Made by a program: the position numbers and the translations under genes
Source: a virus
Direction: 5' to 3' (one strand)
Virus record (IMG/VR): IMGVR_UViG_3300047472_000037
Location: 2,502-66,501 of that record
Length of the DNA: 64,000 bases
Part shown: piece after piece, positions 19,980 through 46,587 of the stretch
Layout: the number at the start of each line of letters is the position of its first letter
Numbering within the stretch: the stretch's first letter is position 1
Notes under the pieces: model-generated
What the model was told of the DNA's origin: nothing
Databases searched by the model: none
What the model saw: only the letters and a program-made list of their open reading frames with translations

Positions 19980-20399
19980 ATGTACGTCACAGTCTATGGG
20001 ACTCTTCAAAAGGGTCAAAGCAACAATCGGTTGTTAGAGAATGCTACACTAGTAACGGAATGTATCGTCCGTGGCTACAAGCTGTACAATTCAGGGTTTC
20101 CTGTCTCTGCTCCATCTGAGCTTGATAGCATTCGTGGTGAAGTGTGGGATATCGGGAGTATCGATAGTGAAACATGGTCTGATACTCTTCGTAATCTTGA
20201 TAGCCTTGAAGGTTACTACGAGAGCGAACGGCTGAGGGACAGATCAATGTACTTCCGTGAGACCATTCAGGCTTTCGGAGATGATGGTAATACCTATGAA
20301 GCAGAGATGTACGTAGGTAATCCTAAGTTCTGGAAAGACTTCAGCAGCATGAGGGAATGCCCTGTTGTTGATAACGTTTACGAATGGAGTAGGCGATGA
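19980..20399 (+). CDS. Gamma-glutamylcyclotransferase (GGCT/AIG2-like)
   Basis: VYGTL..G..N, IRGEVW, LDSLEG motifs. Confidence 0.88.
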   Translation: MYVTVYGTLQKGQSNNRLLENATLVTECIVRGYKLYNSGFPVSAPSELDSIRGEVWDIGSIDSETWSDTLRNLDSLEGYYESERLRDRSMYFRETIQAFGDDGNTYEAEMYVGNPKFWKDFSSMRECPVVDNVYEWSRR

Positions 20400-20800
20400 G
20401 AGTTACAGATCAAACTGCCTCAGTGTTTCAAAAGAAATTCACCGTATTAGAAGATCATGTCGTCATAGCCAGTTGTTTTGCTACCAATTTTTTTGGTACG
20501 GAACAAGTTATTCATCTTCATACCTCCCAAGTTTATCATACTCATCGGAGTAAAGGTATTGGTAGTAAGTTCCACAAGGAACGCCTAGATCATTTTGAAG
20601 AAGAGGGTTGTACTGATCTCCTGACTTGTATCGTCAATACCGCCAATGAACCTCAGATGAAAATCCTGAAGAAACACGGATGGAAGTTTGTCTATAAGTT
20701 CATGAGTAATGAACAAGAGTTGTGTTTCTGTGTGTATGACGTACCTAAGCCTATTCCTTATGATCCTAATCAACAGATGGTTGAAGATGATGATCTCTGA
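20396..20800 (+). CDS. GNAT-like acetyltransferase carrying conserved C-terminal tail (copy 1)
   Basis: V...HRSKGIG acetyl-CoA motif; NEPQ..ILKKHGW; ends IPYDPNQQMVEDDDL. Confidence 0.65.
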   Translation: MRVTDQTASVFQKKFTVLEDHVVIASCFATNFFGTEQVIHLHTSQVYHTHRSKGIGSKFHKERLDHFEEEGCTDLLTCIVNTANEPQMKILKKHGWKFVYKFMSNEQELCFCVYDVPKPIPYDPNQQMVEDDDL

Positions 20801-20954
20801 GGACATCCGGGCACAAGCAGTAATTGAGGGTCGTGCCACTAATCGTACGGCCCTTCGTCGTTTCGTGAAGAACGATGGTCGTAGGAGATTGGCAGAAGAA
20901 TTCACCTCAAGCAGGGGAGTGACCTATGAGCGATGGGCCAAACAAGATGAATGA
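20790..20954 (+). CDS. Small basic protein starting inside tail copy 1
   Basis: MISEDIRAQAVIEGR... Confidence 0.45.
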   Translation: MISEDIRAQAVIEGRATNRTALRRFVKNDGRRRLAEEFTSSRGVTYERWAKQDE

Positions 20955-21246
20955 ACCCCTTCCAGTCGGTACTGAGGTAGTCCTCATCAACAATCAGGAT
21001 GGATTACTTCCCGGTAGTCGTGGGGTCATCAGAGGTATTCAACCATCTGGATTTTACTCGGTATATGTAACACACTCTGTTAGTCCTACTTGGTATGGAC
21101 ATGGTTCTGGTGGTGAAGGTGATTACATAGATCCCCATTCGAGGAAATCCAGAGGGTGGAACGTAGACCCCAAGAATCTTAAAGAATACTTCCTGGAAAT
21201 TCCCTACGATCCAACTCAACAGGCTGACCAAGATGACGACATTTGA
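20947..21246 (+). CDS. Small tailed protein (copy 2)
   Basis: LPVGTEV N-terminus; ends EIPYDPTQQADQDDDI. Confidence 0.7.
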   Translation: MNEPLPVGTEVVLINNQDGLLPGSRGVIRGIQPSGFYSVYVTHSVSPTWYGHGSGGEGDYIDPHSRKSRGWNVDPKNLKEYFLEIPYDPTQQADQDDDI

Positions 21247-21463
21247 GCGGAAAGCGTTTACAAATGTTTATTGGAGTAAATCTCTTCTCGTCTTGATGAA
21301 CAAAGGTACTTATTCAACAGAAGAACTGGCAAAGAAGAACGTAAAAGATGACGAGGACCTAATCTATCAGGACTCAGTCTCTTGTCAGATCCAATGGACC
21401 TACAAAGGTTCTATAACAAAGGAAAAGGTTAATGAACAATCTGTCTCTACTTCTGTGGCTTAG
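21233..21463 (+). CDS. Hypothetical protein
   Basis: Start codon lies within tail copy 2. Confidence 0.5.
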   Translation: MTTFERKAFTNVYWSKSLLVLMNKGTYSTEELAKKNVKDDEDLIYQDSVSCQIQWTYKGSITKEKVNEQSVSTSVA

Positions 21464-21818
21464 TGATGTAGTGGGATCTGCCAAGGTTGCTCTTACGATC
21501 CTATCAGTATGTCTTGGATTAGCTCTCGTCTTTGGTACTGTAATACTGTTTTGTACTAAGGACGATGCGATTAGTAATCCAGCTAGTGATTACTGCCGAC
21601 AAGCCTATAGGGCAGTAAAAATACCCTACACATTTGCTATGATCGTTTGGATACTGGCAGGGATTATAAACATTATGTTGCCCACTAGTAATACTATCCG
21701 GTTGATTGCAGGAACGCAAGTAGGTGAACAGGTGGCAACCACTCCAGAGGCAAAGCAAATCTTTGGGAAAGTAGTTCAAGCACTCAATGTGCAATTGGAT
21801 AAACTAGGGAAGGAATGA
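21432..21818 (+). CDS. Membrane protein
   Basis: Two TM helices; AAGG SD. Confidence 0.65.
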   Translation: MNNLSLLLWLSDVVGSAKVALTILSVCLGLALVFGTVILFCTKDDAISNPASDYCRQAYRAVKIPYTFAMIVWILAGIINIMLPTSNTIRLIAGTQVGEQVATTPEAKQIFGKVVQALNVQLDKLGKE

Positions 21819-21822
21819 ACAG

Positions 21823-22011
21823 ATGTTCTATGTATGGATTCTTTGCTGTTTCCTTCTGTATGCTTATCTACTCTATCAAGAGTGGACCTACAGAAAGAAC
21901 TTGACCCTATTCGATTTTCTCTTTTTTGGCTTTCTGAGTTTCTCAGGACCAATCGGAATCATCGTAGTCATTGTGGCTTTTTTGTATGTGATATTAGTGG
22001 ATGAGAGTTGA
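21823..22011 (+). CDS. Small membrane protein
   Basis: 62 aa, highly hydrophobic; AAGGA SD. Confidence 0.55.
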   Translation: MFYVWILCCFLLYAYLLYQEWTYRKNLTLFDFLFFGFLSFSGPIGIIVVIVAFLYVILVDES

Positions 22012-22043
22012 ACTAATTGGTTTGTAGTTCTAATTTGAGTTTA

Positions 22044-22072
22044 ATTATAGCACGTATTTGGAGCTAAGTCAA
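22044..22072 (-). promoter_or_regulatory. Antisense sigma70 promoter
   Basis: Minus strand TTGACT-N17-TATAAT with TG extension. Confidence 0.6.
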
Positions 22073-22073
22073 G

Positions 22074-22361
22074 ATGTCACAGGAACAAACGTTTCATATA
22101 GGTGATCTTGTAACAGTAGAAGAAAGGGGTGGTGAACTAATATGGGATGGTACCATATACCGTTTTGGTCATTCTGATCATTTTCTTGTTACTTGTTCAG
22201 ACACATCATTTACTGACATTTATCCGAACTATTTCCACACTGATGATCACAGACTCTCTACTCGATGTGGTAAGTATGTCCATAAGATGTATTTGAAAAT
22301 TCGTCTTGATGAACTCCCATATGATCCCACTCAGCAACCCGATGAGGATGACGATGTATAA
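22074..22361 (+). CDS. Small tailed protein (copy 3)
   Basis: FHIGDLV...ELPYDPTQQPDEDDDV. Confidence 0.7.
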   Translation: MSQEQTFHIGDLVTVEERGGELIWDGTIYRFGHSDHFLVTCSDTSFTDIYPNYFHTDDHRLSTRCGKYVHKMYLKIRLDELPYDPTQQPDEDDDV

Positions 22362-22695
22362 TGAACGGATCGTGGAAATCCCAGATGGTCGAGTTGTACT
22401 CCCTGAGTTCTTTTCTGTCGGTGATATCTTCTATGGCCAATGGTTTGGTGTTAATCAATCAGATAACTACTGGCATGGTCCGTACTGTGTTAAATCTTTC
22501 TTCCGTGATGGACAAAAAGGTCGCATGACCTGTTCTGTGGTTGAAGATAACGAGGTGGGTCCTGTAATGAATGAACTTACGGGACAATCAGACCTCTGTG
22601 TTATGTCTTATCCCATCCGAAGGGTTAAGTTTATGACACCTTTCATGATTGAATATGATCCCAAGCAACAGAGGGATGAAGAAGATGACATCTGA
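22354..22695 (+). CDS. Small tailed protein (copy 4)
   Basis: Starts inside copy 3 (MYNER); FSVGDIF; ends IEYDPKQQRDEEDDI. Confidence 0.7.
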   Translation: MYNERIVEIPDGRVVLPEFFSVGDIFYGQWFGVNQSDNYWHGPYCVKSFFRDGQKGRMTCSVVEDNEVGPVMNELTGQSDLCVMSYPIRRVKFMTPFMIEYDPKQQRDEEDDI

Positions 22696-22958
22696 AAGTG
22701 ATTGGGAACCTGTGGAGGTAGAGCAATTCCAGAGAGGGGATAAGATCAGTACGGAAAGTGGTTTAAGGGGGGGGTTACTATCATCACATTGATTTTATAA
22801 GAGGGGCTAATATTTATTATACAGCTTATTGTGATAAACTTCCCTCTTTTACATCAAATGCCCAGGTAAGTATTTTCAAAACTTCTAATTGGCTCCGTTT
22901 TGTAGACTTCAAACCATATGATCCTAAACAAATGCCAGACCAAGAGGATGATATATGA
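22685..22958 (+). pseudogene. Small tailed protein (copy 5) frameshifted at a G8 tract
   Basis: MTSESDW..FQRGDKI; G8 at 22767-74; one G fewer gives a 90-aa ORF ending KPYDPKQMPDQEDDI. Confidence 0.7.
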
Positions 22959-23233: not shown

Positions 23234-23241
23234 CTCTTCAT

Positions 23242-23414: not shown

Positions 23415-24065
23415 ATGAACCACAATAGCGTACCGACCACGTGCACTGCATCTCTCATCACAGGATGGGATATCCCCGGCGTTAATGAAAAGGACGAGAA
23501 GACTCGCCTTAAGACTTGGGATCGTGCTCTTGCTTCTCTTATTTCCTCTGGATACAAGCGGGACTTCGCCATCATCCATGTCTTCACTACTGGTAAACAG
23601 AAGGTTGATGATTTCCTCAAGGCCATCGGTTTCGAAATGGTATTCCATGGTTCTAAGGCAGATGACGAGAGTGTCCAGAGACATCAGGAAACTGGTGATC
23701 TTTTCTTGTGGGCCATCAAGCCTAAGGATTACCAAGAGGGTATCACTAAGCTAAAGGCAGAAATCAAGACTCGATTGGAAGTTATCGATCCCCCTAAGCA
23801 TCCTGATCCTAAGCGCCTCGCTATGCCTGAACTAAAGTTGAGGGCACTTCAGAAGGCAGGGTTTGCCCTAGAGAATGCAAGGGTCGATAACCGTTTCAGT
23901 GATGTTGTCGTAGGTGATCCTGTAGTGGTCGCTAAGTTCATGAAGCTAACTTATGGTTGGGATGTTGTAGTTTTCTGTAAGGCCAATAACTACCCTGAAT
24001 GGACCCGTCTGACCACACGCAAACTGAAAGACCTTCACAATCAATGGCGGAATGAGCTGATCTAA
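23415..24065 (+). CDS. Hypothetical protein at the head of the amidoligase cluster
   Basis: 216 aa; TAATG coupling. Confidence 0.65.
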   Translation: MNHNSVPTTCTASLITGWDIPGVNEKDEKTRLKTWDRALASLISSGYKRDFAIIHVFTTGKQKVDDFLKAIGFEMVFHGSKADDESVQRHQETGDLFLWAIKPKDYQEGITKLKAEIKTRLEVIDPPKHPDPKRLAMPELKLRALQKAGFALENARVDNRFSDVVVGDPVVVAKFMKLTYGWDVVVFCKANNYPEWTRLTTRKLKDLHNQWRNELI

Positions 24066-24727
24066 TGGTGAAGACAACTCCCCGAACTAAGAATAGAGTC
24101 TATGTCGTAGGTTACGATCCTCCTGTCACTAAGATGTGGTTCAGGAGAGAATATGAGATTATGAGTAACCCGGAGTTGGCTGACATCCTCTGCTTCATTG
24201 GTGGATGGGATATCGACCCTGAACTCTATGGGGAAAAGCCAATCAAGGGTACTCGTATTCAACCGGCTGATGATGTCCGTGACACTCGTGCATGGGAACG
24301 TTCCATGTCTATGAGCAAACGTGGGCAACTCAAGGTGGGTATCTGCCGTGGCGGTCAGTTCCTAAATGTATCTAACGACGGTAAAATGTATCAACATGTC
24401 ACAGGTCATTCGAGTGATCATAAGATGTACGATACATTGTTCCGTGATACTAACCCTATTGATGTAACCTCTTCTCACCACCAGATGATGGTTCCTACAG
24501 ATAGTGCAGAGATCATAGGATATTCTGAAGGTATCTCTAGTGAGTTTTGGACACAAGCAGGCAAACTAGAAGTTAAACCTGAGATTGAACCAGAGGTTCT
24601 GTACTACGAGAACTCCCGTAGCCTCTGTTTCCAAGGTCATCCTGAGTGGAATCTTCGTAATCCCAAGGATGGGAACTATGATACCTGTCGGGATTATTTC
24701 TTTAAGATTATGGATATGATTCGATGA
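24065..24727 (+). CDS. Class I glutamine amidotransferase / peptidase C26 (gamma-glutamyl hydrolase-like)
   Basis: GGWDIDP, GICRGGQ nucleophile elbow, SSHHQ, QGHPE. Confidence 0.88.
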   Translation: MVKTTPRTKNRVYVVGYDPPVTKMWFRREYEIMSNPELADILCFIGGWDIDPELYGEKPIKGTRIQPADDVRDTRAWERSMSMSKRGQLKVGICRGGQFLNVSNDGKMYQHVTGHSSDHKMYDTLFRDTNPIDVTSSHHQMMVPTDSAEIIGYSEGISSEFWTQAGKLEVKPEIEPEVLYYENSRSLCFQGHPEWNLRNPKDGNYDTCRDYFFKIMDMIR

Positions 24728-25623
24728 ATGAAATAGCTCAAACTGCAATGAAAGCCTCTCTACCCTTGAGTGGACGTTCTTTTGTTCTCGTTACTGAACA
24801 TGAAGATAGAAGAGTCGAGTATCATATCAGGCAGAGACAACCGTGTTGGGGTGAACTCAGGAAGTACGAGAGGTCCCATCCTACTCGTTGCACTCAACCG
24901 AGTGTTAATAAGCCGGGTGATCTTCATCATCCATTTCCTGATGGTAAACCGATTGGTCTAGCTGTTAATGTCGATGTCAATTGGGACGGATACAAACCGC
25001 AGCTACCAGAGGACCACATGAAGTTCATCTTGGGTGATGAAAGTATCTATAAGTGTGGTATCGGGAAGACAGAAGTTCTATATGATGATAGAGGATTGCC
25101 TGATGCTATCTACTTTGATGGTTTGAATGTTGATCCTACTATTCTCGTGAACTTCCTCCGTACGATGGCGACTAGTACTATGTCAAATATAGTACAGGGA
25201 TACTTGGATGCTGGACTCTCTCGTAAAGAGGCTCAGGTTTTAGTCAAGCTGAATGGGTCTTATAGTATCAAGTCTGGTTATGTCGGCAGTGGTTATCCAC
25301 ATTCAGTCAGACGTGTATATCAGTCTGCTCCACATGATTTCTCTGGTGGTACTATGGAACAGAGGGTGGATTACAACCGTCCAATGCAAGATTACATCTT
25401 CCAGGCGAAAGTCAAGGGGGAAAGTTGGATTGATCTCTGTGAAATGGTAGGTATTCCGAAGTACGGAGCACGAGAACTCAATATGCAGAGTGTTATTATT
25501 CCCAAGGTCAAGGAAATCTTCAGGATAGTTGAAGAAAGACAGGATGATATTTCTCGTCCTAAGCATATCTGGACTACTAAAGGTGGTGTAAGTAATGAAA
25601 ATGAAGGTTGGGTTATCACATGA
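24724..25623 (+). CDS. Hypothetical protein in the amidoligase cluster
   Basis: 299 aa, ATGA-coupled on both sides. Confidence 0.7.
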   Translation: MNEIAQTAMKASLPLSGRSFVLVTEHEDRRVEYHIRQRQPCWGELRKYERSHPTRCTQPSVNKPGDLHHPFPDGKPIGLAVNVDVNWDGYKPQLPEDHMKFILGDESIYKCGIGKTEVLYDDRGLPDAIYFDGLNVDPTILVNFLRTMATSTMSNIVQGYLDAGLSRKEAQVLVKLNGSYSIKSGYVGSGYPHSVRRVYQSAPHDFSGGTMEQRVDYNRPMQDYIFQAKVKGESWIDLCEMVGIPKYGARELNMQSVIIPKVKEIFRIVEERQDDISRPKHIWTTKGGVSNENEGWVIT

Positions 25624-26459
25624 CACGTATTCTAATCGGAAGCGATCCTGAAATCTTCGTGATGGATGAGAATGGGCAGTTCCGTTCTGGTCACGATCTC
25701 ATTCCGGGGACAAAAGAACAACCTCATCCTGTACCATGTGGTGCAATTCAGGTAGACGGTGTTGCCTGTGAGTTCAATATCGATCCGGCAAGTACTGCAC
25801 AAGAGTTCAGTAAGAACATTCGACTGGTAATGAACTCCCTCGAAGAATTTGTCAAGGGTATTCAGCCGGGGTATTCTCTTGAAATCACTCCTACTGCACA
25901 TTTCGAGAAGATATACTTTGAATCTCTGCCTGAAGAGGTGAAGAAACTAGGTTGTACTCCTGATTTCTGTGCCTATACAGGAGAAGAGAACGAATCACCA
26001 GAGACTACTGAACCTTTCCGCACTGGTGCAGGACACATCCACATCGGGTGGGGTGATGGTGGTTACTTCCCTGATGAACAACACATGAAGACATGTATCG
26101 GTTTGGTGAAAGAACTTGATTGTTCTCTGTATGCTTCATCCCTTATGTGGGATCACGATACTAAACGTCGATCATTATACGGCAAGGTGGGTGCATTTCG
26201 TCCTAAACCATACGGTCTAGAGTATCGTCCACTGAGTAATGCATATCTAACAGAGAAGAAGACACAGGAATATGTCTTTGAGGTAACCAAGAATGTGGCC
26301 AGTAATTATTTCTCCTCTGCTCGTCGTATCAGCCATGACCCCCTTTGTGGTCGTTTCGTTGAGAATATACTGCTCGAAAAGGTTCCCGGACCAGCTGGTT
26401 TGGCCGCTTACGTATCTTACATTGAGAAAGCGTTTAAGCTCCCAGTATACCGTAGGTGA
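25620..26459 (+). CDS. phiEco32-like COOH-NH2 ligase type 2 (paralog 1)
   Basis: IGSDPEIF, QVDGVACEFNI, GCTPD, GAGHIHIG, RPKPYGLEYR. Confidence 0.85.
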   Translation: MTRILIGSDPEIFVMDENGQFRSGHDLIPGTKEQPHPVPCGAIQVDGVACEFNIDPASTAQEFSKNIRLVMNSLEEFVKGIQPGYSLEITPTAHFEKIYFESLPEEVKKLGCTPDFCAYTGEENESPETTEPFRTGAGHIHIGWGDGGYFPDEQHMKTCIGLVKELDCSLYASSLMWDHDTKRRSLYGKVGAFRPKPYGLEYRPLSNAYLTEKKTQEYVFEVTKNVASNYFSSARRISHDPLCGRFVENILLEKVPGPAGLAAYVSYIEKAFKLPVYRR

Positions 26460-26479
26460 ATTAGGTATGGATCATGAAG

Positions 26480-26746
26480 ATGACATTTAGAGTGGGTGAT
26501 TGTGTTCGTTTAGCTACAGAGTCTGAGTGTGAGATGAACACCCCTCGTGAATTAAGGTCTAATAGGCTCGATAGGTATGATCAGAGTACAGTATTCACTG
26601 TGACTAAAGAACCAGATCGTTGCGGACTCATACATCTAACCACGAAAGGTGAAGAACCCTGTGTTGCCTTTGCTGGGAGATTTAGGCGGCGCATGGAACT
26701 CCCATATGATCCAACTCAGCAACCAGACGAGGATGACGATGTATAA
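26480..26746 (+). CDS. Small tailed protein (copy 6)
   Basis: MTFRVGDCV...ELPYDPTQQPDEDDDV. Confidence 0.72.
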   Translation: MTFRVGDCVRLATESECEMNTPRELRSNRLDRYDQSTVFTVTKEPDRCGLIHLTTKGEEPCVAFAGRFRRRMELPYDPTQQPDEDDDV

Positions 26747-26993: not shown

Positions 26994-27007
26994 CAGAAAG
27001 AAATAAA

Positions 27008-28144
27008 ATGTGTGGCTTGTGGGGTTGTATGGGTCCGGGTATTACCCGAGCGGACCTTAAGATTATTCGTGACCTTGGTATCTTTTCTCAGGTACGTGGT
27101 ATGGATGGTGCTGGTGTATACCAAATTCGTTCGAATGCACAGAAGGGGTGGAGGTCATATGAACAGTTGTACAAGACGTATGCAACATTCTCCGAGATGG
27201 TCCTTGAGATTGAGACGAAGCAACGTCGTCGTGATAAAGGGATGGAAGATATCCTCGACACTATTTCTATTGACATCTTTATGGGTCATGTACGTTGGGC
27301 TACGAAGGGTGGTACAGACTCCGCTCAGGCTCATCCTTATGCATACTCTACTCTTGTCGGTGCACACAACGGTACACTTCGGGATAAGAAGTACGAAGAC
27401 AATGTACGCACTGACTCTGATTTGATGTTCGAAGATGCTAATCGTCGTGGTCTAGAGACAGTCCTCAATGAACTCGACCCATGGTCGGCCTACGCCATCA
27501 CGGTGTATGATAAAGTTCAGAAGAGGATGTACTTCGCTCGTAACGATGATCGTCCATTGTTCTTTGCTGTCAACAAAAATCGTTCAGTTCTATATTGGGC
27601 ATCAGAGAAGAAGATGCTTGAGTATGTCTTGGACAGGAATAATGAACTCAGTAACTGTTCACTCCATGAGTTGATCTCTGGTTTGTTGGTCTATGTTGAT
27701 CCCACTGAGATGACATATCGGGTGATTCAAGACAAACCCAAAACGATCTTTCATGGCAGGGAACTACACCCAAAGAAAAAGAATACTCACTATGCTGGCA
27801 ACCACAAGAACCACACTGATGTAGATGATTACTGGTCTAACTGGACCAAGAAGAAATTCGAGAAGAAAGAAGAAGAAGTAAAGGTCGTAGAAGTACAAGC
27901 GGAGGTAGACGATAACGTCGTCCCGTTTTCAGGAGGAACTAAAATCACCTCCTCCCTTCGTTCCTATCACGCCGCCTGTGAGTGTGGAAAACAAAGACTC
28001 AATCTCCTTCAAATCAGTCAGGCAATACGAGGAAAGTCTCAACAGTTCAAGTCTAATACCGAAGGTGATAAATTTTTCTGTATGGCTTGCACTAATGATT
28101 CTAATCGTAATGATGACAATAATAGCCAGACGGTGATGGCCTAA
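27008..28144 (+). CDS. Class II (Ntn) glutamine amidotransferase (paralog 1)
   Basis: N-terminal MCG, RGMDGAG, GHVRWAT, HPY, AHNGTL, TDS. Confidence 0.88.
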   Translation: MCGLWGCMGPGITRADLKIIRDLGIFSQVRGMDGAGVYQIRSNAQKGWRSYEQLYKTYATFSEMVLEIETKQRRRDKGMEDILDTISIDIFMGHVRWATKGGTDSAQAHPYAYSTLVGAHNGTLRDKKYEDNVRTDSDLMFEDANRRGLETVLNELDPWSAYAITVYDKVQKRMYFARNDDRPLFFAVNKNRSVLYWASEKKMLEYVLDRNNELSNCSLHELISGLLVYVDPTEMTYRVIQDKPKTIFHGRELHPKKKNTHYAGNHKNHTDVDDYWSNWTKKKFEKKEEEVKVVEVQAEVDDNVVPFSGGTKITSSLRSYHAACECGKQRLNLLQISQAIRGKSQQFKSNTEGDKFFCMACTNDSNRNDDNNSQTVMA

Positions 28145-28422
28145 TGTTTAAGATTGGTGATCAAGTAAGATTAGTCAGGGCAGTGGACTATCTTTATACG
28201 GGATCAGAGGGTGTTATTCTTGAACCGTGTGAGTTTCTGAAGGATTACCAATGGGTGATCAGGATAACCAAGAGTATAAAAGGTAGTACAAAAGGCCATT
28301 ATTGTGATGGACGTGTTCCTGGAGGTGGTGGTTATTTCGTTAGAGAGTCTGCCTTAGAGAAGATCAATATTGAACTCCCATACGACCCCAAGCAACAGAG
28401 GGATGAAGAAGATGACATTTAG
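28144..28422 (+). CDS. Small tailed protein (copy 7)
   Basis: MFKIGDQV...ELPYDPKQQRDEEDDI. Confidence 0.72.
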   Translation: MFKIGDQVRLVRAVDYLYTGSEGVILEPCEFLKDYQWVIRITKSIKGSTKGHYCDGRVPGGGGYFVRESALEKINIELPYDPKQQRDEEDDI

Positions 28423-28672
28423 AGTGGGTGATGAAGTCATCTATGAGGGTTTAGGTCCTCAAGCATATCCAGCATGGAGAGACAGTACCGGAATCATACT
28501 GTCAAATTGGAATAGAATGATGAAGGTGAAGTGGACAGGAGGACCAGTCTTAAAAGGTCGCCTTGAATCTTACCATATATCCACCCATTTCCCACACAAC
28601 CTTAAACTCCTAACTCCAAAAGAATTACCGTATGATCCTGCACAGCAACCTGATCAAGAGGATGATGTTTAA
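28412..28672 (+). CDS. Small tailed protein (copy 8)
   Basis: MTFRVGDEV...ELPYDPAQQPDQEDDV. Confidence 0.72.
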   Translation: MTFRVGDEVIYEGLGPQAYPAWRDSTGIILSNWNRMMKVKWTGGPVLKGRLESYHISTHFPHNLKLLTPKELPYDPAQQPDQEDDV

Positions 28673-29388
28673 TGCCTATTATTAAGATAGGGGCGGACCC
28701 TGAAGCATTTATCGTTGATAAGAGTGGGACATTCTTCCCTGCTCATAATATCGTTCCGGGAACAAAAGAACATCCCTTTAAGCTCGAAAGAGGTGCTGTA
28801 CAAGTTGATGGGGTAGCTTGTGAGTTCAATATTGATCCTGTTGAGACAGAAGACTCTTTCGTAAAAAATATTGGAGTAGTCCTCACTCAGATCAATGAGA
28901 TCATCAAGAAGGTAGATAAAGACCTAAGTCTCTCTTGGGTTCCTATTGTCCAATTCAAACCATTAGTATGGGACACTGTACCTGAGACGAATAAAATCTT
29001 GGGTTGTGATCCTGACTATAATATCAACGGTGAAGTGAACATCAATCCCACTGAGAAACTGGAGGGAACTCCTCTCCGTACCGCAGCGGGGCATATCCAC
29101 ATTGGTTTCTTGGACAATCTAATTGACAATCCTGGGGATCAATCCCACTTTGATGATTGCCTTTACTTCGCCAAGGGTTTCCACAGTGCAGGATTGAGGA
29201 CTTATACACCTCACAGCAAAGACGAATATGAACGATTGAATTATTACGGTCACAATGGTTCTTTCCGCCCCAAGAAGTATGGTGTTGAGCTAAGAGCACC
29301 TTCGAATGTATGGGTGAAGAACGAGATTTCACAACGCCTTGTTTTTAATGAAACTAGGACTAGATTTAAGGAATTGTCAGGTATCTAA
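28672..29388 (+). CDS. phiEco32-like COOH-NH2 ligase type 2 (paralog 2)
   Basis: IGADPEAF, QVDGVACEFNI, GCDPD, AAGHIHIG, RPKKYGVELR. Confidence 0.85.
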   Translation: MPIIKIGADPEAFIVDKSGTFFPAHNIVPGTKEHPFKLERGAVQVDGVACEFNIDPVETEDSFVKNIGVVLTQINEIIKKVDKDLSLSWVPIVQFKPLVWDTVPETNKILGCDPDYNINGEVNINPTEKLEGTPLRTAAGHIHIGFLDNLIDNPGDQSHFDDCLYFAKGFHSAGLRTYTPHSKDEYERLNYYGHNGSFRPKKYGVELRAPSNVWVKNEISQRLVFNETRTRFKELSGI

Positions 29389-29389
29389 G

Positions 29390-30010
29390 ATGAAAAATAA
29401 ATATCGTGGCGATGACATCCAAGGGCGTCTTGGTAATACGGTTATCCGTTACAAGAGTCATCCATATTTTTGTCAAGTAGAAAATACCACTCTTTGCCTT
29501 TATGACATGCATACCGGAAGTCTATCTGTACGAGTAGATCCGGATGATCCATTCATTGATATTAGTAGCGTTCCTCTTGGGTATGTGAACATTGATCATC
29601 CAGAGTACAAGCTGGCTGTATACCTAAAGCGTGAAGGTCGTCGTCAATTCAAACAGGGTGTAGAGCTTGGACATCTAACACAAGTCCCTCTTCGTAATGG
29701 ATCAGGTCAACTCCATTGGTCTCATCTGAAGTGCAAGGGACTGGTTGATTGCATCGTAGGGAATTACCCTTCATTCGATGTGGCAGTCCAGACAATTTCT
29801 AAGCGTGGCTTCTACTCGGTTGCACTATCCAAGGATGTTGCCCTCAAGCGAGAAGGGGATACTCTCAAAGTTTATGTCAAGACTGATGAAGTAGGTTTCC
29901 TGAAGCTCGGAACCAATAGGGTAGTCATGCCCAAAGTTGATAACAGCTATATCAATATTTGTTATCTGAATGAAATCAAAGGTTGGGATGTATACGAAGG
30001 TATTAAATAA
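29390..30010 (+). CDS. Hypothetical protein of the amidoligase cluster
   Basis: Start MKNKYRGDD at 29390; PLGYVN and R...RQFKQG. Confidence 0.7.
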   Translation: MKNKYRGDDIQGRLGNTVIRYKSHPYFCQVENTTLCLYDMHTGSLSVRVDPDDPFIDISSVPLGYVNIDHPEYKLAVYLKREGRRQFKQGVELGHLTQVPLRNGSGQLHWSHLKCKGLVDCIVGNYPSFDVAVQTISKRGFYSVALSKDVALKREGDTLKVYVKTDEVGFLKLGTNRVVMPKVDNSYINICYLNEIKGWDVYEGIK

Positions 30011-31035
30011 TGACTAACACAATTAGTACTGTCTTTGATATTCAAAAGTCTATCGGTCGTCCTTTCAAGGAGAGGCATACTGGTCTCTATGGTGTTGAGA
30101 TTGAGACAGAGACAGAAAGAAAATACGACTATCCTGCACTCCACTATTGGAACTGCGGAAAGGACAACAGTCTTCGTGATTGGGGAGTTGAGTACGTTCT
30201 GAAGGCCCCATTGAGTATTCCAGAACTAGAGAAAGCCTTTGAGGAATTCCGTCAGGCAGAAAAGAAGTATCGGTTCCGCCCTGAGAGTGTGAGTACTTCT
30301 GTCCACGTCCACACGAACATGCTCAATCAGACCTATCTGACTGTGGCAAACTACTTGACGACATGGCTTATGGTTGAACCTGTACTCATTCAGTACTCTG
30401 GTCCTGACCGTCTATCCAATCTCTTCTGTTTCGGGGTGAAGGATGCAGAAGGTATTCTTGATCATTGGGAGAAGTACGTCCAAGCATTGAACAGAAACAA
30501 TTTCAAGAGTTGCCCATCTGCTGAAGCGGTTAAGTACTCTGCCCTGAACATCGCCACCTTGCATACTCTAGGGACTGTTGAGGCTCGTTGCTTCCGTGGC
30601 GAAACTGATGTCAAGAAGATCGGGATTTGGATTGAACTCCTGAATAAAATCAAGGAGTTTTCTGCACGTCCTGGGATGACACCACCTAAGATTCTCGAAC
30701 TCTACAATAAGAACCGGGAAGGTATCATCGATATAATCTTTATAGAGTATGCCAAAGAGTTGAAGTGCAAAGATTATGAGAAGTTGATCACTCTCGATCA
30801 TCTGAAGTATGCATCTCGTATTGCAGCATCATCTAAGGACTGGACTCGTTTTGGTCTGGTGAAGGTTAAGGCAGTCTACAAGGAGATGGTCAAAGAAATC
30901 CTTGAACAAATCTCTCAGGAGATTACCAAAGGATCATTCGATCAACTACCATTCCATGAACGTCAATTGGTATATGAAATCTATCAGCGTCGTAACCCAA
31001 CATCTCGTATCGTAGATGAACTCGAAGATGTATAA
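30010..31035 (+). CDS. Putative amidoligase (GCS-fold, Amidoligase_2-like)
   Basis: YGVEIETE, DNSLR..GVEY, SVHVH, KYSALN, GTVEAR; ends DELEDV. Confidence 0.82.
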   Translation: MTNTISTVFDIQKSIGRPFKERHTGLYGVEIETETERKYDYPALHYWNCGKDNSLRDWGVEYVLKAPLSIPELEKAFEEFRQAEKKYRFRPESVSTSVHVHTNMLNQTYLTVANYLTTWLMVEPVLIQYSGPDRLSNLFCFGVKDAEGILDHWEKYVQALNRNNFKSCPSAEAVKYSALNIATLHTLGTVEARCFRGETDVKKIGIWIELLNKIKEFSARPGMTPPKILELYNKNREGIIDIIFIEYAKELKCKDYEKLITLDHLKYASRIAASSKDWTRFGLVKVKAVYKEMVKEILEQISQEITKGSFDQLPFHERQLVYEIYQRRNPTSRIVDELEDV

Positions 31036-31046: not shown

Positions 31047-31826
31047 ATGGCTGTTAAAGCAATGTTCGCATACAACTCTGGGTCCGAAGGTGCTCGTGAG
31101 TTGAAAACTGCAATGATGATTCCTATGATTAAACATCATGGTTCTTCATTTCGTCCGGGGGCAGAGAAAGTTATCCTCAATTGGGGGGCAACTACTGATC
31201 GTTACCCGGCTGCACTACTCAGTTGTCGGATTATCAATCACCCTACTCGTGTAGACTCAGCCGTAGATAAGGTCGCTACGTTCAATCTCTTTCGTGAACA
31301 TGGTGTATCCTCTCCTGAGTTCACAACGAGCAAGGCTGAGGCTATACGTTGGTGTGAGAGTGGTTCCACAGTATTTGCTCGTACTATTCTTCGTGCACAC
31401 TCTGGTCGTGGTATCGAGATCATGGACCCTGACCATCCTGATACACTTGATGTCAATGCCCCCCTGTATGTCAAGTACATTCCCAAGAAGTTCGAGTATC
31501 GTATCCATGTGATGAATGGTGAAGTGATTGACACTCAACGTAAGGGTCTTAAGGAAGAGTTCAAGGATCGTCCAAATGTCAACCATAAGATTCGTAATCT
31601 TGCTAATGGCTTTATTTACGTTCGGAACGACGGTCATGTGGTCCCAGAATGTGTGCGTAGTGTTGGCATCCACGCTGTTACTGCTCTCGGTCTTGACTTC
31701 GGGGCTGTGGACGTTATCTACAATCAACGAGAAAATAGGGCATACGCACTTGAGGTTAATACAGCCCCCGGTCTCTCTGGAACCACAGTCACGAACTACC
31801 GCGATGCCCTCGTCGCAAACTTTTAG
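31047..31826 (+). CDS. ATP-grasp ligase (RimK/YheC-like)
   Basis: LNWG, DKVATF, SGRGI, EYRIHV, LDFGAVD, LEVNTAPG. Confidence 0.88.
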   Translation: MAVKAMFAYNSGSEGARELKTAMMIPMIKHHGSSFRPGAEKVILNWGATTDRYPAALLSCRIINHPTRVDSAVDKVATFNLFREHGVSSPEFTTSKAEAIRWCESGSTVFARTILRAHSGRGIEIMDPDHPDTLDVNAPLYVKYIPKKFEYRIHVMNGEVIDTQRKGLKEEFKDRPNVNHKIRNLANGFIYVRNDGHVVPECVRSVGIHAVTALGLDFGAVDVIYNQRENRAYALEVNTAPGLSGTTVTNYRDALVANF

Positions 31827-31827
31827 T

Positions 31828-31878
31828 GAACTCCCATACGACCCTAAGCAACAGAGGGATGAAGAAGATGATATTTAA
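31828..31878 (+). repeat. Tail copy 9 (ELPYDPKQQRDEEDDI) in the +1 frame behind the ATP-grasp stop
   Basis: 48 of 51 nt identical to copy 7; differences are synonymous in the tail frame. Confidence 0.85.
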
Positions 31879-44703: not shown

Positions 44704-45026
44704 GGACTGGCTAGAGAGGGAGCTAGAGAAAAAAGACTTTGAAACGATCCTAGAAGATTTCGATCTTGATCCGTATACAGTGTTCTGGTTGTTATTTCAA
44801 AATGGATTGATCGATGAAGAATTGATTGAATTGGAAGTAGATTGAATACTACAGACAGCTATACAATCAAGTACCCCCTCGAAGTATTTGAAGAGTGGTT
44901 GGAAGAGAGGGCTATGGAGGATGGTATCTTCTATGGTAACGGAAGAATTTCCATAACTAACATCACCTTCGACGATGTGAATGCATATGTCATAATTGAA
45001 GGTGAAATCTTACGGAGAATGGATTC

Positions 45027-45791
45027 ATGAACGCACATAAATTTTATACACTACTATCTGTCGGTGTCATTGGACTATCAGCCCTACTCTTCTTGGGCAA
45101 GGCTGTACGAGCAGACGAGGTAAGTACTTTTCAGAAACAAGCCGTGGACACTGTACTACAGTTGAATCGTAATTGTTCTGGTACTGTAGTTGATATTGGT
45201 GTTCCTTCGAGTACCTATATCCTTACTGCCAATCATTGCACGACAGAAGAAGCTGCTAATGATGCTCAGCGTGGTATGGTTTCTGTAGACGAGAAGGTAC
45301 ATGGCAAACTCATTAGTACTGAACTTCTTCCCTATGATGTAGTTGTCCGTGATACTGCCAAGGATCTGGCTATTGTAAAGGTTCGTAAGGAAGGTCTCTT
45401 TCTACCTACCGCTAAGATCGCCAAGGAAGATCCTAGGGAAGGCGAACAGGTCTGGACTATCGGGTATCCTCTAGGACTCACTAGAACCGTCACAGAGGGC
45501 CGTATGGGCGACTACGAGGCTATCAATAAGGATATGACCGCTGATAACTTCGGTGATGCTCCTGATGGTCGTGTAATGTACCGTGCTACTCCCGCCCTAT
45601 ATGGTGGTAACTCTGGTGGTGGTTTCTTCATTAAACGTAATGATGATTACCTTCTTGTTGGTGTATCTGACGCAGGCTTCCGTCAGTTCTTTGTTGCTGG
45701 TTATTATGTAACTCAGAGTGATGTGAATGACCTAGTCGGTCGTGCATTCAAAAAGACCGCTGAAATCGAACAGAAGAAGGCTAACGATTGA
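45027..45791 (+). CDS. Trypsin-like serine protease with N-terminal signal/TM segment
   Basis: LTANHC, DLA, IGYP, GNSGG catalytic triad motifs. Confidence 0.85.
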   Translation: MNAHKFYTLLSVGVIGLSALLFLGKAVRADEVSTFQKQAVDTVLQLNRNCSGTVVDIGVPSSTYILTANHCTTEEAANDAQRGMVSVDEKVHGKLISTELLPYDVVVRDTAKDLAIVKVRKEGLFLPTAKIAKEDPREGEQVWTIGYPLGLTRTVTEGRMGDYEAINKDMTADNFGDAPDGRVMYRATPALYGGNSGGGFFIKRNDDYLLVGVSDAGFRQFFVAGYYVTQSDVNDLVGRAFKKTAEIEQKKAND

Positions 45792-45917
45792 TGGCAGGAG
45801 AAATAATCTTCTCTGCATTCGGGGGATTCTTATTTGGTCTGATCCTTGGGTGTATGCTAACATCGATGGATGCCAAAGATCGTGAAATAAAGGGTTTGAA
45901 GAAAAGAGTTGGTGAAG

Positions 45918-46178
45918 ATGACTAAACTAACATTTACAACTGATGAGGATCATGTTCATACCTTCGAAGGTGAAGTGATGATCGATGGTAAGCTGGAGGG
46001 ATTTAGTATCCAGTTCACCAAGGAATTCCCAACGGGTAAAGATATTGGACACATGCTATATGCTGCTGCTAATCTGGCCAGTAGTAATCATTATGTAAAC
46101 CAGTATAATTCCATTGTAGACCTTCTAGAACAACTAGAGAAAGATCTAGAAGCGCTCAGTGGAGATAGTAATGGATGA
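45918..46178 (+). CDS. Hypothetical protein
   Basis: ORF in operon; start uncertain. Confidence 0.5.
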   Translation: MTKLTFTTDEDHVHTFEGEVMIDGKLEGFSIQFTKEFPTGKDIGHMLYAAANLASSNHYVNQYNSIVDLLEQLEKDLEALSGDSNG

Positions 46179-46298
46179 AGATAATGATCCACACTCGGAT
46201 GAATACTACTTCTATGCTGGCTGTTTGATTTCTGTCGGTATGGGGATACTGGTTGCTGTCTTCCTATACATGTTGAACAGTTTGTTGTAATCATATCA

Positions 46299-46329
46299 GC
46301 CCTCGTAGAGATACGGGGGTTTTTCTTTC
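46299..46329 (+). terminator. Intrinsic terminator
   Basis: GCCCTCGTA-GAGA-TACGGGGGT followed by TTTTCTTT. Confidence 0.78.
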
Positions 46330-46341
46330 TGAGGATTAAGA

Positions 46342-46587
46342 ATGTTTGAATCAGGTGATATTGTACAAGTGATCGTAGAGAGTTCTAGAACAGATTACGC
46401 TGGATATAAAGGGTTTTATGGTGAACATGTAAAGATTATAGCAGGACCATATGATGATGATTCTGTTCTAGTATCTATTTTGAATTCTGGTGAGAGTGCA
46501 GTCATGTATATAGATGAGATTGCTCAATTGGATTTTGAACTCCCATATGATCCAAAACAGATGCCAGACCAAGAGGACGATATTTGA
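46342..46587 (+). CDS. Small tailed protein (copy 13), outlier 12 kb from the cluster
   Basis: MFESGDIV...ELPYDPKQMPDQEDDI. Confidence 0.72.
   Translation: MFESGDIVQVIVESSRTDYAGYKGFYGEHVKIIAGPYDDDSVLVSILNSGESAVMYIDEIAQLDFELPYDPKQMPDQEDDI

What the first reader, a model, noticed from the sequence alone, without database searches (positions are those of the whole stretch)
20396..46587. Shared C-terminal tag (LPYDPxQQxDEEDDI-stop) found 13 times, mostly interleaved with an amidoligase cluster
Seen in sequence: the ~16-aa tail ends at 20800, 21246, 22361, 22695, 22958, 26746, 28422, 28672, 31878, 32122, 34176, 34435 and 46587. YDP, the first Q, the terminal DD(I/V/L) and the distance to the stop are invariant, while synonymous codons vary, so selection is acting on the peptide. 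Twelve copies lie within or just upstream of the ligase / ATP-grasp / GATase / GGCT cluster. Established: such clusters in phiEco32-like phages are usually proposed to modify peptidoglycan; GCS-fold ligases (PafA/Dop) and RimK-type ATP-grasps modify Glu/Gln at protein C-termini. Inference: the tail is either a substrate site (Gln deamidation, gamma-glutamyl ligation, reversal by GGCT/C26) or a docking signal to a common partner, making this a phage-encoded protein-tagging system. I do not recognise it as a described system.
Basis: partly seen in the sequence, partly recalled or inferred. Interest (0 to 1): 0.93.

Follow-up and report, generated by a model that had tools for sequence, protein, structure and literature searches.

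The report
Shared acidic tail on phage proteins
Small early proteins of this uncultured rhizosphere phage all end in the same short acidic peptide, which selection keeps at the protein level and which looks like an undescribed address tag whose reader is still unknown.

Summary
Thirteen copies of Y-D-P-x-Q-[QM]-x-[DV]-[EQ]-[ED]-D-D-[ILV]-stop lie on the + strand at the stated ends. Eleven close intact genes, one closes a gene broken by a G8 run, and one is a 17-codon remnant behind the ATP-grasp gene. Selection acts on the peptide: tail identity by codon position is 0.84/0.88/0.45. Carriers are SH3/Tudor-like mini-proteins plus one GNAT. Relatives (phiM6, Rhizobium phage N3_19, 15 IMG/VR contigs) carry 5-19 copies of their own tail version. 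Four unrelated phages with the same enzyme cassette carry different acidic tails. Some Rhizobium strains have the tail on histidyl-tRNA synthetase; one metagenome bin has it on isoleucyl-tRNA synthetase. My best reading (0.4) is a portable recognition tail, most likely read by an amide-bond enzyme of the surrounding cassette, with the RimK-like ATP-grasp as first candidate. No binding or modification was shown. Most cassettes have no tail family (71 of 80 loci). I found no paper describing it. This scan had already noted the same tail on related phages.

The parts
20396..20800 (+). Tailed gene 1: small GNAT acetyltransferase-fold protein ending ..IPYDPNQQMVEDDDL
   Evidence: ORF list. Pfam Acetyltransf_1 E 3.1e-6. 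Tailed GNAT homologues in relatives: 3 of 29 long tailed proteins; tblastn hits in L041, L044 and L212.
20926..21246 (+). Tailed gene 2 (106 aa), SH3-like N-terminal motif, ends ..IPYDPTQQADQDDDI
22074..22361 (+). Tailed gene 3 (95 aa), ends ..LPYDPTQQPDEDDDV
22342..22695 (+). Tailed gene 4 (start at 22342, 22348 or 22354, inside the tail codons of gene 3), ends ..IEYDPKQQRDEEDDI
22676..22958 (+). Tailed gene 5, broken: ATG at 22676 or 22685, frame lost at the G8 run 22767-22774, tail frame resumes and ends ..KPYDPKQMPDQEDDI
   Evidence: Sequence. The same letters stand in a second assembly (record 2: 0 other letters, 0 gaps).
26460..26490 (+). Degenerate tail remnant (..ELGMDHEDDI-stop) in another frame behind COOH-NH2 ligase 1. 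It holds the start of tailed gene 6.
   Evidence: ORF 26293..26490; gene 6 starts at 26474
26474..26746 (+). Tailed gene 6 (90 aa), ends ..LPYDPTQQPDEDDDV
28144..28422 (+). Tailed gene 7 (92 aa), ends ..LPYDPKQQRDEEDDI
   Evidence: The protein atlas calls its nearest cluster 'putative SH3-like domain protein'.
28403..28672 (+). Tailed gene 8 (89 aa), starts inside the tail of gene 7; its stop overlaps the start of ligase 28672 (TAATG)
31827..31878 (+). Tail copy 9: 17 codons (SELPYDPKQQRDEEDDI) with no gene body, +1 frame directly behind the ATP-grasp stop (..AAC TTT TAG T..). It holds the start of gene 10.
   Evidence: Sequence. The roughly 62-nt stretch (tail plus first codons of the next gene) is nearly identical to the gene 7/8 junction, while the flanks are unlike.
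31859..32122 (+). Tailed gene 10 (87 aa); the model folds as a small beta-barrel with an unstructured tail
   Evidence: AF2 pLDDT 74.7. Weak Tudor/SH3-like matches, best E 0.03.
33832..34176 (+). Tailed gene 11 (114 aa), ends ..MRYDPKQMPDEEDDI
34157..34435 (+). Tailed gene 12 (92 aa), last gene before the replication module
46342..46587 (+). Tailed gene 13 (81 aa), the only copy outside the cluster, directly upstream of a glutaredoxin gene
   Evidence: Pfam Glutaredoxin for 46588-46875
19980..20399 (+). GGACT/AIG2-like gamma-glutamyl cyclotransferase, first gene of the cluster
   Evidence: Pfam PF06094 E 1.1e-15
23415..24065 (+). p216: untailed protein found only in the tail-bearing phiM6-like lineage; N-terminal half is weakly GNAT-like
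   Evidence: Present in 6 of 6 phiM6-like loci and 0 of 70 others. All 7 of 7 IMG/VR relatives lie on tail-bearing contigs. Also found in L001, L002 and L124. AF2 pLDDT 84. Foldseek best E 4e-3 and VIA Z 7.9 to GNATs.
24065..24727 (+). Peptidase C26 / class I amidotransferase-like
   Evidence: Pfam PF07722 E 3.3e-12
25608..26459 (+). COOH-NH2 ligase type 2 (copy a)
   Evidence: Pfam PF14395 E 1.9e-7, 31 bits, cut-off 25
27008..28144 (+). Class II glutamine amidotransferase-like (copy a)
   Evidence: Pfam GATase_6 E 6.9e-13
28672..29388 (+). COOH-NH2 ligase paralogue (copy b)
   Evidence: 40% identical to copy a by tblastn
30010..31035 (+). Amidoligase_2; ends in frame with its own acidic tail ..RIVDELEDV
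   Evidence: Pfam PF12224 E 4.3e-8. C-termini of orthologues..VDAxGD[IL].
31047..31826 (+). ATP-grasp ligase, RimK-like
   Evidence: phrog_2599 'ribosomal protein S6 glutaminyl transferase' E 5e-77. Best solved relatives are RimK 5zct/4iwx, E 2e-4.
32122..33180 (+). Class II glutamine amidotransferase-like (copy b)
   Evidence: Pfam GATase_4 E 1.9e-7
33122..33832 (+). Weak GGACT-like protein
   Evidence: Pfam PF06094 E 0.0028, below the cut-off

Best explanation
The tail is a portable C-terminal recognition peptide: a short linear motif read with its free acidic end (..D-D-I/V/L-COO-) and the preceding Y-D-P-x-Q turn. The phage attaches it to a family of small SH3/Tudor-like proteins with hypervariable bodies, and to a GNAT. 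All of them are thereby recognised by one common reader.

The RimK-like ATP-grasp is the first candidate and the GS-type amidoligases the second. Such an enzyme would activate a tail carboxylate and add an amide-linked group. The C26 peptidase and the GGCT-type enzymes would be able to remove it.

Shown: peptide-level selection, modularity, lineage-wise concerted change, and embedding in the cassette. Inferred: that there is a single reader, that it is a cassette enzyme, and that the tail is modified and not merely bound.
For: (1) Peptide-level selection at an exact distance from the stop. Identity by codon position is 0.84/0.88/0.45, and 383 of 760 same-residue codon pairs differ.

(2) Concerted, lineage-specific versions on otherwise unlike proteins. 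There are 17 copies of ..Y[DN]PxQxGD[TR][ED][ED]DI in N3_19 and 13 copies of ..DY[KR][IV]DQEPxE[ED]EE.L in phiM6. IMG/VR relatives carry 5-19 copies. I collected 149 distinct tailed proteins, and 132 of 135 profile hits among 1.84 billion representatives carry the tail.

(3) Modularity. The same tail sits on a GNAT (3 of 29 long tailed proteins) and on DUF7448 (2 of 29). It also sits on Rhizobium HisRS, on 22 of the 58 HisRS ends I printed. HisRS shares only residues 507-523 with the phage loci.

(4) Link to the cassette in this genome. Nine of 10 tailed small genes lie in the span that holds 15 of 80 small + strand genes (P = 2e-7). Tail-gene stops overlap the starts of a ligase and a GATase gene.

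(5) Four unrelated ATP-grasp-bearing phage lineages carry other acidic tail families within about 7 kb of the ATP-grasp. These are CW02 ..LLEENV x8, L053 ..EAEWE x7, L088 ..YEEWFK x5 and L095 ..DEDL[YF]Y x6. The internal control never exceeded 3. L053 and L103 share the same N-terminal M..F.VGD.V motif.

(6) Chemistry. The ATP-grasp belongs to phrog_2599, 'ribosomal protein S6 glutaminyl transferase'. Its nearest solved relatives are RimK. From established knowledge (recalled), RimK, LysX and TTL-type ATP-grasp enzymes act on acidic protein C-termini.
Against: Most cassettes have no tail family. In 71 of 80 ATP-grasp loci the largest C-terminal cluster is 2 or less, as in PA11 and a Zobellviridae phage. 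In a primase-centred sample, 0 of 19 cassette loci had a family.

Outside the tail-family loci, the small neighbours of the ATP-grasp are not enriched for acidic ends (2 of 47 against 43 of 851).

The association of tail families with cassettes has no adequate control. Non-cassette loci gave 0 of 25, but Fisher P is only 0.21.

In phiM6 the tailed genes form a separate tandem array around the first cassette gene and upstream of the rest, and none adjoins the ATP-grasp.

No gene family within 10 kb is specific to all tail-bearing lineages.

The last residue differs between tail families (I/V/L, V, E, K, Y), so no single side-chain chemistry is conserved. The 'invariant' Q is G in 9 of 19 tails of L044.

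L044 has two tail subtypes but no duplicated cassette enzyme.

None of the enzymes carries the tail in frame.
Confidence: 0.4

Rival explanations
1. The tail is a docking handle, but the reader is not a cassette enzyme. It could be a host protein or another phage protein, for example the replisome as with the acidic tails of T7 gp2.5 and gp4, or the pockets that bind the SSB C-terminus. The SH3-like bodies would then be a library of adaptors or inhibitors brought to that hub. The position among the enzymes would only reflect a hot spot for small accessory genes.
For: Tails exist on host HisRS, and on one IleRS, in genomes where the strict pattern finds no other copy. The tandem array in phiM6 is not interleaved with the enzymes. 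Most cassettes lack tails. There is no tail-specific gene near the cassette. Tails that end in an acidic run plus a hydrophobic last residue resemble known docking tails (recalled).
Against: Within this genome the tailed genes are concentrated in the cassette and not among the roughly 34 small genes upstream of it. Tail versions differ between phages that probably share host types (window type against N3_19 type), which a conserved host pocket would not require. No candidate reader was identified.
Confidence: 0.25
2. The tail is a turnover or sorting signal: a degron that times the removal of early proteins, or a signal that loads them into the particle.
For: A shared terminal peptide on many otherwise unrelated early proteins is the layout of the T4 capsid-targeting sequence and of C-terminal degrons (recalled). 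All carriers are on the early/middle + strand arm.
Against: Known bacterial C-terminal degrons are non-polar and not poly-acidic (recalled). A constitutive degron on an essential HisRS would be costly, yet tailed HisRS occurs in 22 protein clusters. The tail is C-terminal, and the only protease seen (45027-45791, Trypsin_2) begins with a hydrophobic, signal-like segment.
Confidence: 0.1
3. The repeat is mainly a nucleic-acid or gene-organisation device. The GA-rich tail codons supply the ribosome-binding site and the ATG of the next gene, and they act as the joint at which gene cassettes duplicate and recombine. The peptide would be a by-product.
For: In 6 of 13 copies (7 counting the broken gene) the next gene starts at an ATG inside the tail codons, and 3 more overlap at the stop. 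Two bodiless tail remnants sit behind enzyme genes and carry the start of the next tailed gene. Three copies share near-identical DNA, and the second assembly breaks its contigs exactly there.
Against: Third codon positions are free (0.45 identity) while first and second are fixed. The non-GA half (Y-D-P-x-Q) is just as conserved. Copies with no downstream overlap (20800, 34435, 46587) keep the tail. The tail is kept at the exact C-terminus of HisRS, where no such gene junction exists.
Confidence: 0.08
4. The family reads itself. The SH3-like barrel of one member binds the P-x-x-P-containing tail (L-P-Y-D-P) of another, building a multivalent network into which the tailed GNAT, or a tailed host enzyme, is drawn.
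For: No separate reader gene was found. In the window, 9 of 9 proteins with the N-terminal F.VGD.V motif also carry the tail. SH3 domains classically bind PxxP peptides (recalled).
Against: The N-terminal motif stays the same in lineages whose tails are entirely different and lack PxxP (L053 ..EAEWE, L103 ..ALCLK). The barrel assignment itself rests on weak matches.
Confidence: 0.07

Closest known systems
Phage 'phiEco32-type' amidoligase cassette (Pfam PF14395 COOH-NH2_lig, PF12224 Amidoligase_2, class II GATase, ATP-grasp, GGCT). Iyer et al. 2009 is cited through the phiM6 genome paper; I could not open it.
   Same: The enzymes around the tailed genes are this cassette. [quoted passage not shown]
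   Different: The phiM6 paper does not mention a tail or a family of tailed small proteins. The tails are present in only 9 of 80 cassette loci by my detector.
ATP-grasp enzymes acting on acidic protein C-termini: RimK on ribosomal protein S6, LysX/ArgX on the LysW carrier protein, tubulin tyrosine ligase and polyglutamylases (recalled knowledge)
   Same: A RimK-like ATP-grasp is encoded among small proteins with acidic C-terminal tails. One unrelated phage family ends in ..EAEWE; from recall, this resembles the EDWGE end of LysW.
   Different: The tails here end in I/V/L and not Glu. There are 13 or more different carriers instead of one. The carriers are SH3-like and not S6 or zinc-ribbon LysW. 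No modification has been shown.
Acidic C-terminal docking tails: bacterial SSB C-terminus (..DDDIPF), T7 gp2.5 and gp4 tails on T7 DNA polymerase (recalled; also named in earlier scan note e1-3433680)
   Same: An unstructured acidic run that ends in a hydrophobic residue with a free carboxylate, used as a handle.
   Different: Those are single proteins of the replication machinery with a terminal aromatic residue. Here it is a multi-copy family with an additional Y-D-P-x-Q element and an aliphatic end. No partner is known.
T4 capsid-targeting sequence on internal proteins (recalled)
   Same: One short shared peptide on several unrelated phage proteins acts as an address.
   Different: It is N-terminal, cleaved by the prohead protease, and belongs to late proteins. 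The tail here is C-terminal and sits on early/middle genes.
Pup with PafA/Dop (recalled)
   Same: GS-fold carboxylate-amine ligases plus a Gln/Glu-bearing C-terminal peptide.
   Different: Pup is one disordered protein ending in GGQ or GGE. Here the proteins are folded, the end is aliphatic, and the conserved Q is replaceable (G in 9 of 19 tails of L044).

Membership tests
Phage amidoligase cassette (PF14395 / PF12224 neighbourhood) | COOH-NH2 ligase type 2 and Amidoligase_2 genes above the Pfam gathering score | tested here: met
   PF14395: 31.0 bits against cut-off 25. PF12224: 33.8 bits against cut-off 22.
Phage amidoligase cassette (PF14395 / PF12224 neighbourhood) | Accompanying class II GATase, ATP-grasp, GGCT/GGACT and C26 genes in one operon | tested here: met
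   GATase_6, GATase_4, GGACT and Peptidase_C26. ATP-grasp is phrog_2599, E 5e-77. The same gene order is found in 8 relatives.
RimK / ribosomal protein S6 system | ATP-grasp of the RimK family | tested here: inconclusive
   The best PDB sequence matches are RimK, but only at E 2e-4 to 3e-4. There was no Pfam hit at E 0.01. The PHROG name says S6 glutaminyl transferase, which is an annotation and not a test.
RimK / ribosomal protein S6 system | Substrate C-terminus ends in Glu-Glu of protein S6 | tested here: not met
   All 13 tails end D-D-[ILV]. The carriers are not S6.
LysW-type amino-group carrier proteins | Small zinc-ribbon protein ending in a conserved ..EDWGE with a terminal Glu (recalled definition) | tested here: not met
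   The carriers model as a beta-barrel without a Cys4 motif and end in I/V/L.
Pup / PafA / Dop | Disordered tag protein ending in GGQ or GGE (recalled definition) | tested here: not met
   The folded body has three long strands at pLDDT about 75-87. The end is D-D-[ILV].
Graspetide / microviridin-type RiPP precursors | Core peptide with conserved Thr/Ser/Lys nucleophiles paired with Asp/Glu (recalled definition) | tested here: not met
   The only position that is sometimes K or T (-10) varies: A/K/M/N/T in the window and T/N/M/K/S/E in 147 relatives.
SH3 / Tudor-like small beta-barrel | Five-stranded barrel fold with significant structural matches | tested here: inconclusive
   The model has pLDDT 74.7. 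Foldseek best E is 0.03, with hits consistently Tudor, KOW and CarD-type. The protein atlas gives 'putative SH3-like domain protein' at 0.91 and SH3_12 by structure. There are no Pfam or PHROG hits.
SSB-Ct / T7 gp2.5-type docking tail | Binding of the free acidic C-terminus to a partner pocket | not testable with these tools
   It needs binding assays. Sequence alone shows the acidic run plus a hydrophobic end.

The most novel reading that the evidence does not exclude
A phage-encoded, reversible protein-ligation system. The acidic tail would be the common acceptor or donor handle of a library of SH3-like adaptor proteins. The cassette's ATP-grasp or GS-type ligases would activate a tail carboxylate and join it by an amide bond to an amine, either a small molecule or a lysine of whatever host protein the variable body has bound. 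C26 and GGCT enzymes would undo the bond. Rhizobia would have grafted the same handle onto abundant essential enzymes (HisRS, once IleRS) as a decoy or sensor in the conflict with these phages.
Probability: 0.1. Interest if true: 0.9.

Novelty: new variant of a known kind. Interest (0 to 1): 0.64.

Why it matters
The phage amidoligase cassette is widespread. An ATP-grasp homologue occurs in 313 phage records and 160 IMG/VR stretches. Its substrate has never been shown; the only proposal I could read is peptidoglycan modification, as stated in the phiM6 paper. A family of co-translated proteins with a conserved free acidic C-terminus gives concrete, testable candidate substrates or partners. 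Two cultured systems are available: phiM6 on Sinorhizobium meliloti 1021 and RHph_N3_19 on Rhizobium phaseoli. The same 16-residue module on the histidyl-tRNA synthetase of some Rhizobium strains would, if functional, be a rare case of a host copying a phage address tag. More generally, lineage-specific C-terminal tails on multi-copy small phage proteins may be a common, overlooked way of organising early proteins.

Tried and rejected
Complex prediction. ATP-grasp (15-row alignment) plus tailed protein 10 (18-row alignment) plus ATP scored 0.00 in both runs. The verdict was 'no answer', so it counts neither for nor against binding.

RNA evidence. No RNA holder was listed for 22001-32000. The only holder is one DNA run (coded X1, rhizosphere metagenome) that may be the source sample.

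Family searches. Pfam and PHROG searches of ten tailed proteins gave nothing below E 0.09.

Word-based homologue search. Tailed protein 7 found only itself.

IleRS. A search with the last 40 residues of the tailed IleRS found nothing at E <= 10 among 56 candidates. The IleRS case therefore rests on one metagenome-bin contig.

Family-wide pattern search. Of 401 genomes of the family of G001, 1 had a match, and that was G001 itself.

Search for a reader gene shared by all tail lineages. All-vs-all BLAST of 81 loci found none; only universal genes are shared.

Duplicated reader in L044, which has two tail subtypes: none found.

Acidic ends on neighbours of the ATP-grasp outside the tail families: not enriched.

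Control for the base rate of tail families. The primase-centred sample gave 0 of 25 non-cassette loci but also 0 of 19 cassette loci, so the association stays unproven.

+1 frameshift at TTT-TAG that would fuse the tail to the ATP-grasp. I consider it less likely than a junction remnant. Identity to the gene 7/8 junction is confined to the tail plus the first codons of the next gene. A second, degenerate remnant lies behind ligase 1 without a slippery site. No relative has a tailed enzyme. It is not excluded.

p216 as reader. It co-occurs perfectly with the tail, but only within one lineage. Its GNAT likeness is weak (Z 7.9, within the range of chance best hits).

Literature. Motif strings and keyword searches found no description of the tail (listings only). 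Iyer et al. 2009 and the PhiRIO-1 paper are not held, so what they say is taken from the phiM6 paper or from recall. Supplementary files were not consulted.

Full report
WHAT IS THERE. The window is 64 kb of a complete 66.5-kb virus record with direct terminal repeats. A six-frame search finds the peptide Y-D-P-x-Q-[QM]-x-[DV]-[EQ]-[ED]-D-D-[ILV]-stop 13 times. A motif-blind detector clustered the last 10 residues of all 582 stop-to-stop ORFs, linking those with at least 6 of 10 identical. It returns exactly these 13 as one cluster. The same test on residues -30..-20 gives a largest cluster of 2.

Eleven copies close intact genes of 81-134 codons. The copy ending at 22958 closes a gene whose frame is lost at a G8 run (22767-22774). 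A second assembly of what may be the same sample has the same letters. The copy ending at 31878 is a bare 17-codon tail directly behind the ATP-grasp stop codon. A 14th, degenerate remnant (..ELGMDHEDDI) lies behind the first COOH-NH2 ligase.

SELECTION IS ON THE PEPTIDE. Mean pairwise identity of the 13 tail codons is 0.84 and 0.88 at codon positions 1 and 2 but 0.45 at position 3. Of 760 codon pairs that encode the same residue, 383 use different codons. The 13 codons upstream are unrelated, at 0.29-0.35 identity.

The DNA has a second use. In 6 of 13 copies (7 with the broken gene) the next gene starts at an ATG created by the GAT-GA. codons of the tail. Three more overlap at the stop. Copies 4, 7 and 9 share nearly identical DNA, and the other assembly breaks its contigs at copies 4 and 7. 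Tails are therefore also the joints at which these genes duplicate. This explains the two bodiless remnants without invoking frameshifting, although the TTT-TAG-T context behind the ATP-grasp would allow a +1 slip.

THE CARRIERS. Ten carriers share an N-terminal F-x-[VI]-G-D-x-V strand and a hypervariable middle. The AlphaFold model of one (pLDDT 74.7) has three long strands and an unstructured tail. Structural matches are weak, with a best E of 0.03, but they are consistently Tudor, KOW and CarD-type barrels. The protein atlas calls the nearest cluster SH3-like. Pfam and PHROGs find nothing.

One carrier is a small GNAT. Among 29 long tailed proteins of relatives, 3 are GNATs and 2 are DUF7448. 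The tail is thus a module that moves between folds.

THE SURROUNDINGS. Twelve copies lie between 20396 and 34435, inside an operon with this gene order:
- GGACT
- GNAT with the tail
- p216
- peptidase C26
- p299
- COOH-NH2 ligase
- class II GATase
- a second COOH-NH2 ligase
- p223
- Amidoligase_2
- ATP-grasp
- a second class II GATase
- a GGCT-like protein
These assignments come, and the order is conserved in eight relatives. By a simple gene call, 9 of 10 tailed small genes lie in the span that holds only 15 of the 80 small + strand genes (P = 2e-7). The roughly 34 small genes upstream have no tail.

DISTRIBUTION. The closest cultured relatives by the ATP-grasp are Rhizobium phages RHph_N3_19, N3_13 and I3_11 and Sinorhizobium phage phiM6, at 58-61% identity. 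N3_19 has 17 copies of ..Y[DN]PxQxGD[TR][ED][ED]DI. phiM6 has 13 copies of ..DY[KR][IV]DQEPxE[ED]EE.L in one tandem array.

A degenerate DNA pattern of the tail hits 27 stretches on 15 IMG/VR contigs. All hold one or more copies, and six of the contigs are 66-71 kb long. A profile of 18 family members finds 136 representatives among 1.84 billion proteins, and 132 of the 135 new ones carry the tail.

Every complete tail-bearing genome tested has the ATP-grasp, including 3 of 3 further virus records at least 90% complete and a 67.9-kb contig binned with a bacterial genome. They are one lineage, so this is weak evidence. The phiM6 genome paper mentions the enzyme module and the peptidoglycan proposal but not the tails. 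Searches for motif strings and keywords found no description.

OTHER TAILS NEAR THE SAME ENZYMES. I ran the blind detector on 80 IMG/VR loci centred on ATP-grasp homologues. Nine have a C-terminal cluster of 5 or more, while the internal control never exceeds 3. Five of the nine are phiM6-like. The other four are unrelated and have tails of their own: Salinivibrio phage CW02 ..L.P.LLEENV (8 copies), L053 ..EAEWE (7), L088 ..PE[IV]YEEWFK (5) and L095 ..DEDL[YF]Y (6).

L053 and a tenth locus, L103, share the F.VGD.V N-terminus. One small-protein family has therefore acquired different tails in different phages, each uniform within its genome.

The other 71 loci have no such family, nor do PA11 and a Zobellviridae phage. 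A primase-centred sample gave no family in 19 cassette loci or in 25 non-cassette loci. The link between tails and the cassette is therefore suggestive and not established (Fisher P = 0.21). Outside the tail families, neighbours of the ATP-grasp are not enriched for acidic ends.

HOST COPIES. The same DNA pattern in 185,579 species genomes gave nine stretches on seven contigs. The multi-copy hits are phage-like contigs in metagenome bins. Three are single copies in Rhizobium.

Two are histidyl-tRNA synthetase genes ending ..GFET[PS]YDPAQAGDTDDDI. One, from a metagenome bin, is an isoleucyl-tRNA synthetase gene ending ..GELLPYNPDQQCDEEDDI. A protein search with the HisRS end found only HisRS. 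Of the 58 ends I printed, 22 carry the extension (about 520-567 aa against 506-507 aa). Fifteen of these have an intact D-x-[ILV]-type tip and seven have a decayed tip (..ENA..DKD..DRD..DDE..DHE).

HisRS shares nothing but these 17 residues with the phage loci. The IleRS case could not be found again. The host copies show that the peptide works, or at least is tolerated, as a free-standing module on unrelated proteins. They fit a reader that is present only during infection.

WHO READS IT. This remains open. No gene within 10 kb is specific to all tail-bearing lineages.

p216 co-occurs perfectly with the phiM6-type tail. It is present in 6 of 6 phiM6-like loci against 0 of 70 others, and all 7 of 7 IMG/VR relatives lie on tailed contigs. 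It is also found in N3_19, phiM6 and a bin contig. However, it is lineage-specific, and its GNAT likeness is weak.

The ATP-grasp is phrog_2599, and its nearest solved relatives are RimK enzymes at E 2e-4. Enzymes of that kind act on acidic protein C-termini (recalled). Amidoligase_2, encoded just upstream, itself ends in a conserved acidic ..VDAxGD[IL] or ..VDELEDV.

Against a simple chemical role of the conserved Gln, relative L044 has G there in 9 of 19 tails.

VERDICT. The tail is a peptide-level, portable, concertedly evolving C-terminal motif. I read it as a recognition handle for one reader and put the cassette's ATP-dependent amide ligases first among candidates (0.4). A non-cassette reader is the main rival (0.25). 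That it defines a protein-tagging system is possible but unshown (about 0.1). I found no description in print. The same tail had already been noted by this scan on related phages (e1-3433680, e1-5989168, e1-6174050).

Noticed in passing
window 22676-22958 (G8 run at 22767-22774): One family member is split by a run of eight G; one G fewer would give a roughly 90-codon tailed protein. A second assembly of what may be the same sample has the same eight G at about 40x word depth. It is probably a real broken or phase-variable copy and not an assembly slip.
   Followed up: partly
window 31815-31878 and 26438-26490: Two enzyme genes (ATP-grasp, COOH-NH2 ligase 1) are followed by a bodiless tail or tail remnant in another frame. 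Behind the ATP-grasp the context is AAC TTT TAG T, where a +1 slip would append the full tail. I think both are duplication-joint remnants, but frameshifting was not tested.
   Followed up: partly
window 23242-23316 and 17137-17210: tRNA-Gln (anticodon TTG) sits inside the enzyme cluster between gene 22955-23233 and p216. tRNA-Asn (GTT) lies upstream. The likely purpose is codon supply for an AT-rich phage in a GC-rich host; phiM6 is reported to have no tRNA genes.
   Followed up: no
window 23415-24065: p216 is an untailed 216-aa protein with an invariant N-terminal T-x-C-T and a central IDPPK.PDP.R motif. It is found only in tail-bearing phiM6-like phages. Its N-terminal half is weakly GNAT-like and its C-terminal half is helical.
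   Followed up: partly
window 30010-31035 (end): Amidoligase_2 ends in frame with its own acidic tail (..RIVDELEDV), which is ..VDAxGD[IL] in four of the five phiM6-like orthologues (..VSINEDL in the fifth). Of 74 family members, 16 have four or more acidic residues among the last eight, often with a hydrophobic or aromatic last residue.
   Followed up: partly
L121, L125 (Rhizobium HisRS genes) and L123 (IleRS gene, Rhizobium metagenome bin): Host tRNA synthetases carry the phage-type 16-17-residue tail at their exact C-terminus. For HisRS it is a strain polymorphism (about 523 against 506-507 aa), and some copies have decayed tips.
   Followed up: partly
L051 (Salinivibrio phage CW02), L053, L088, L095, L103: Unrelated phages with the same ATP-grasp carry their own multi-copy C-terminal tails: ..LLEENV, ..EAEWE, ..YEEWFK, ..DEDLYY and ..ALCLK.
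   Followed up: partly
L044 (IMG/VR contig, 19 tailed genes): Two tail subtypes coexist in one genome, ..YDPNGEGETDDDI (9 copies) and ..YDP.QQGE....I (10 copies), without any duplicated cassette enzyme.
   Followed up: partly
P0132 (1319 aa) and P0248 (1142 aa): Two long proteins each match the body of the family profile in five separate stretches and lack the tail. They appear to be tandem arrays of the same small barrel.
   Followed up: no
window 40321-40974: A 217-aa protein in the replication module ends ..HEDLDDKLPW, a different acidic tail with an aromatic end. By recall it is reminiscent of T7 gp2.5-type single-strand-binding proteins. It has no PHROG hit.
   Followed up: no
window 45027-45791: A trypsin-like peptidase (Trypsin_2) begins with a hydrophobic, signal-like N-terminus. 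It is conserved in N3_19 as 'putative trypsin-like peptidase'.
   Followed up: no
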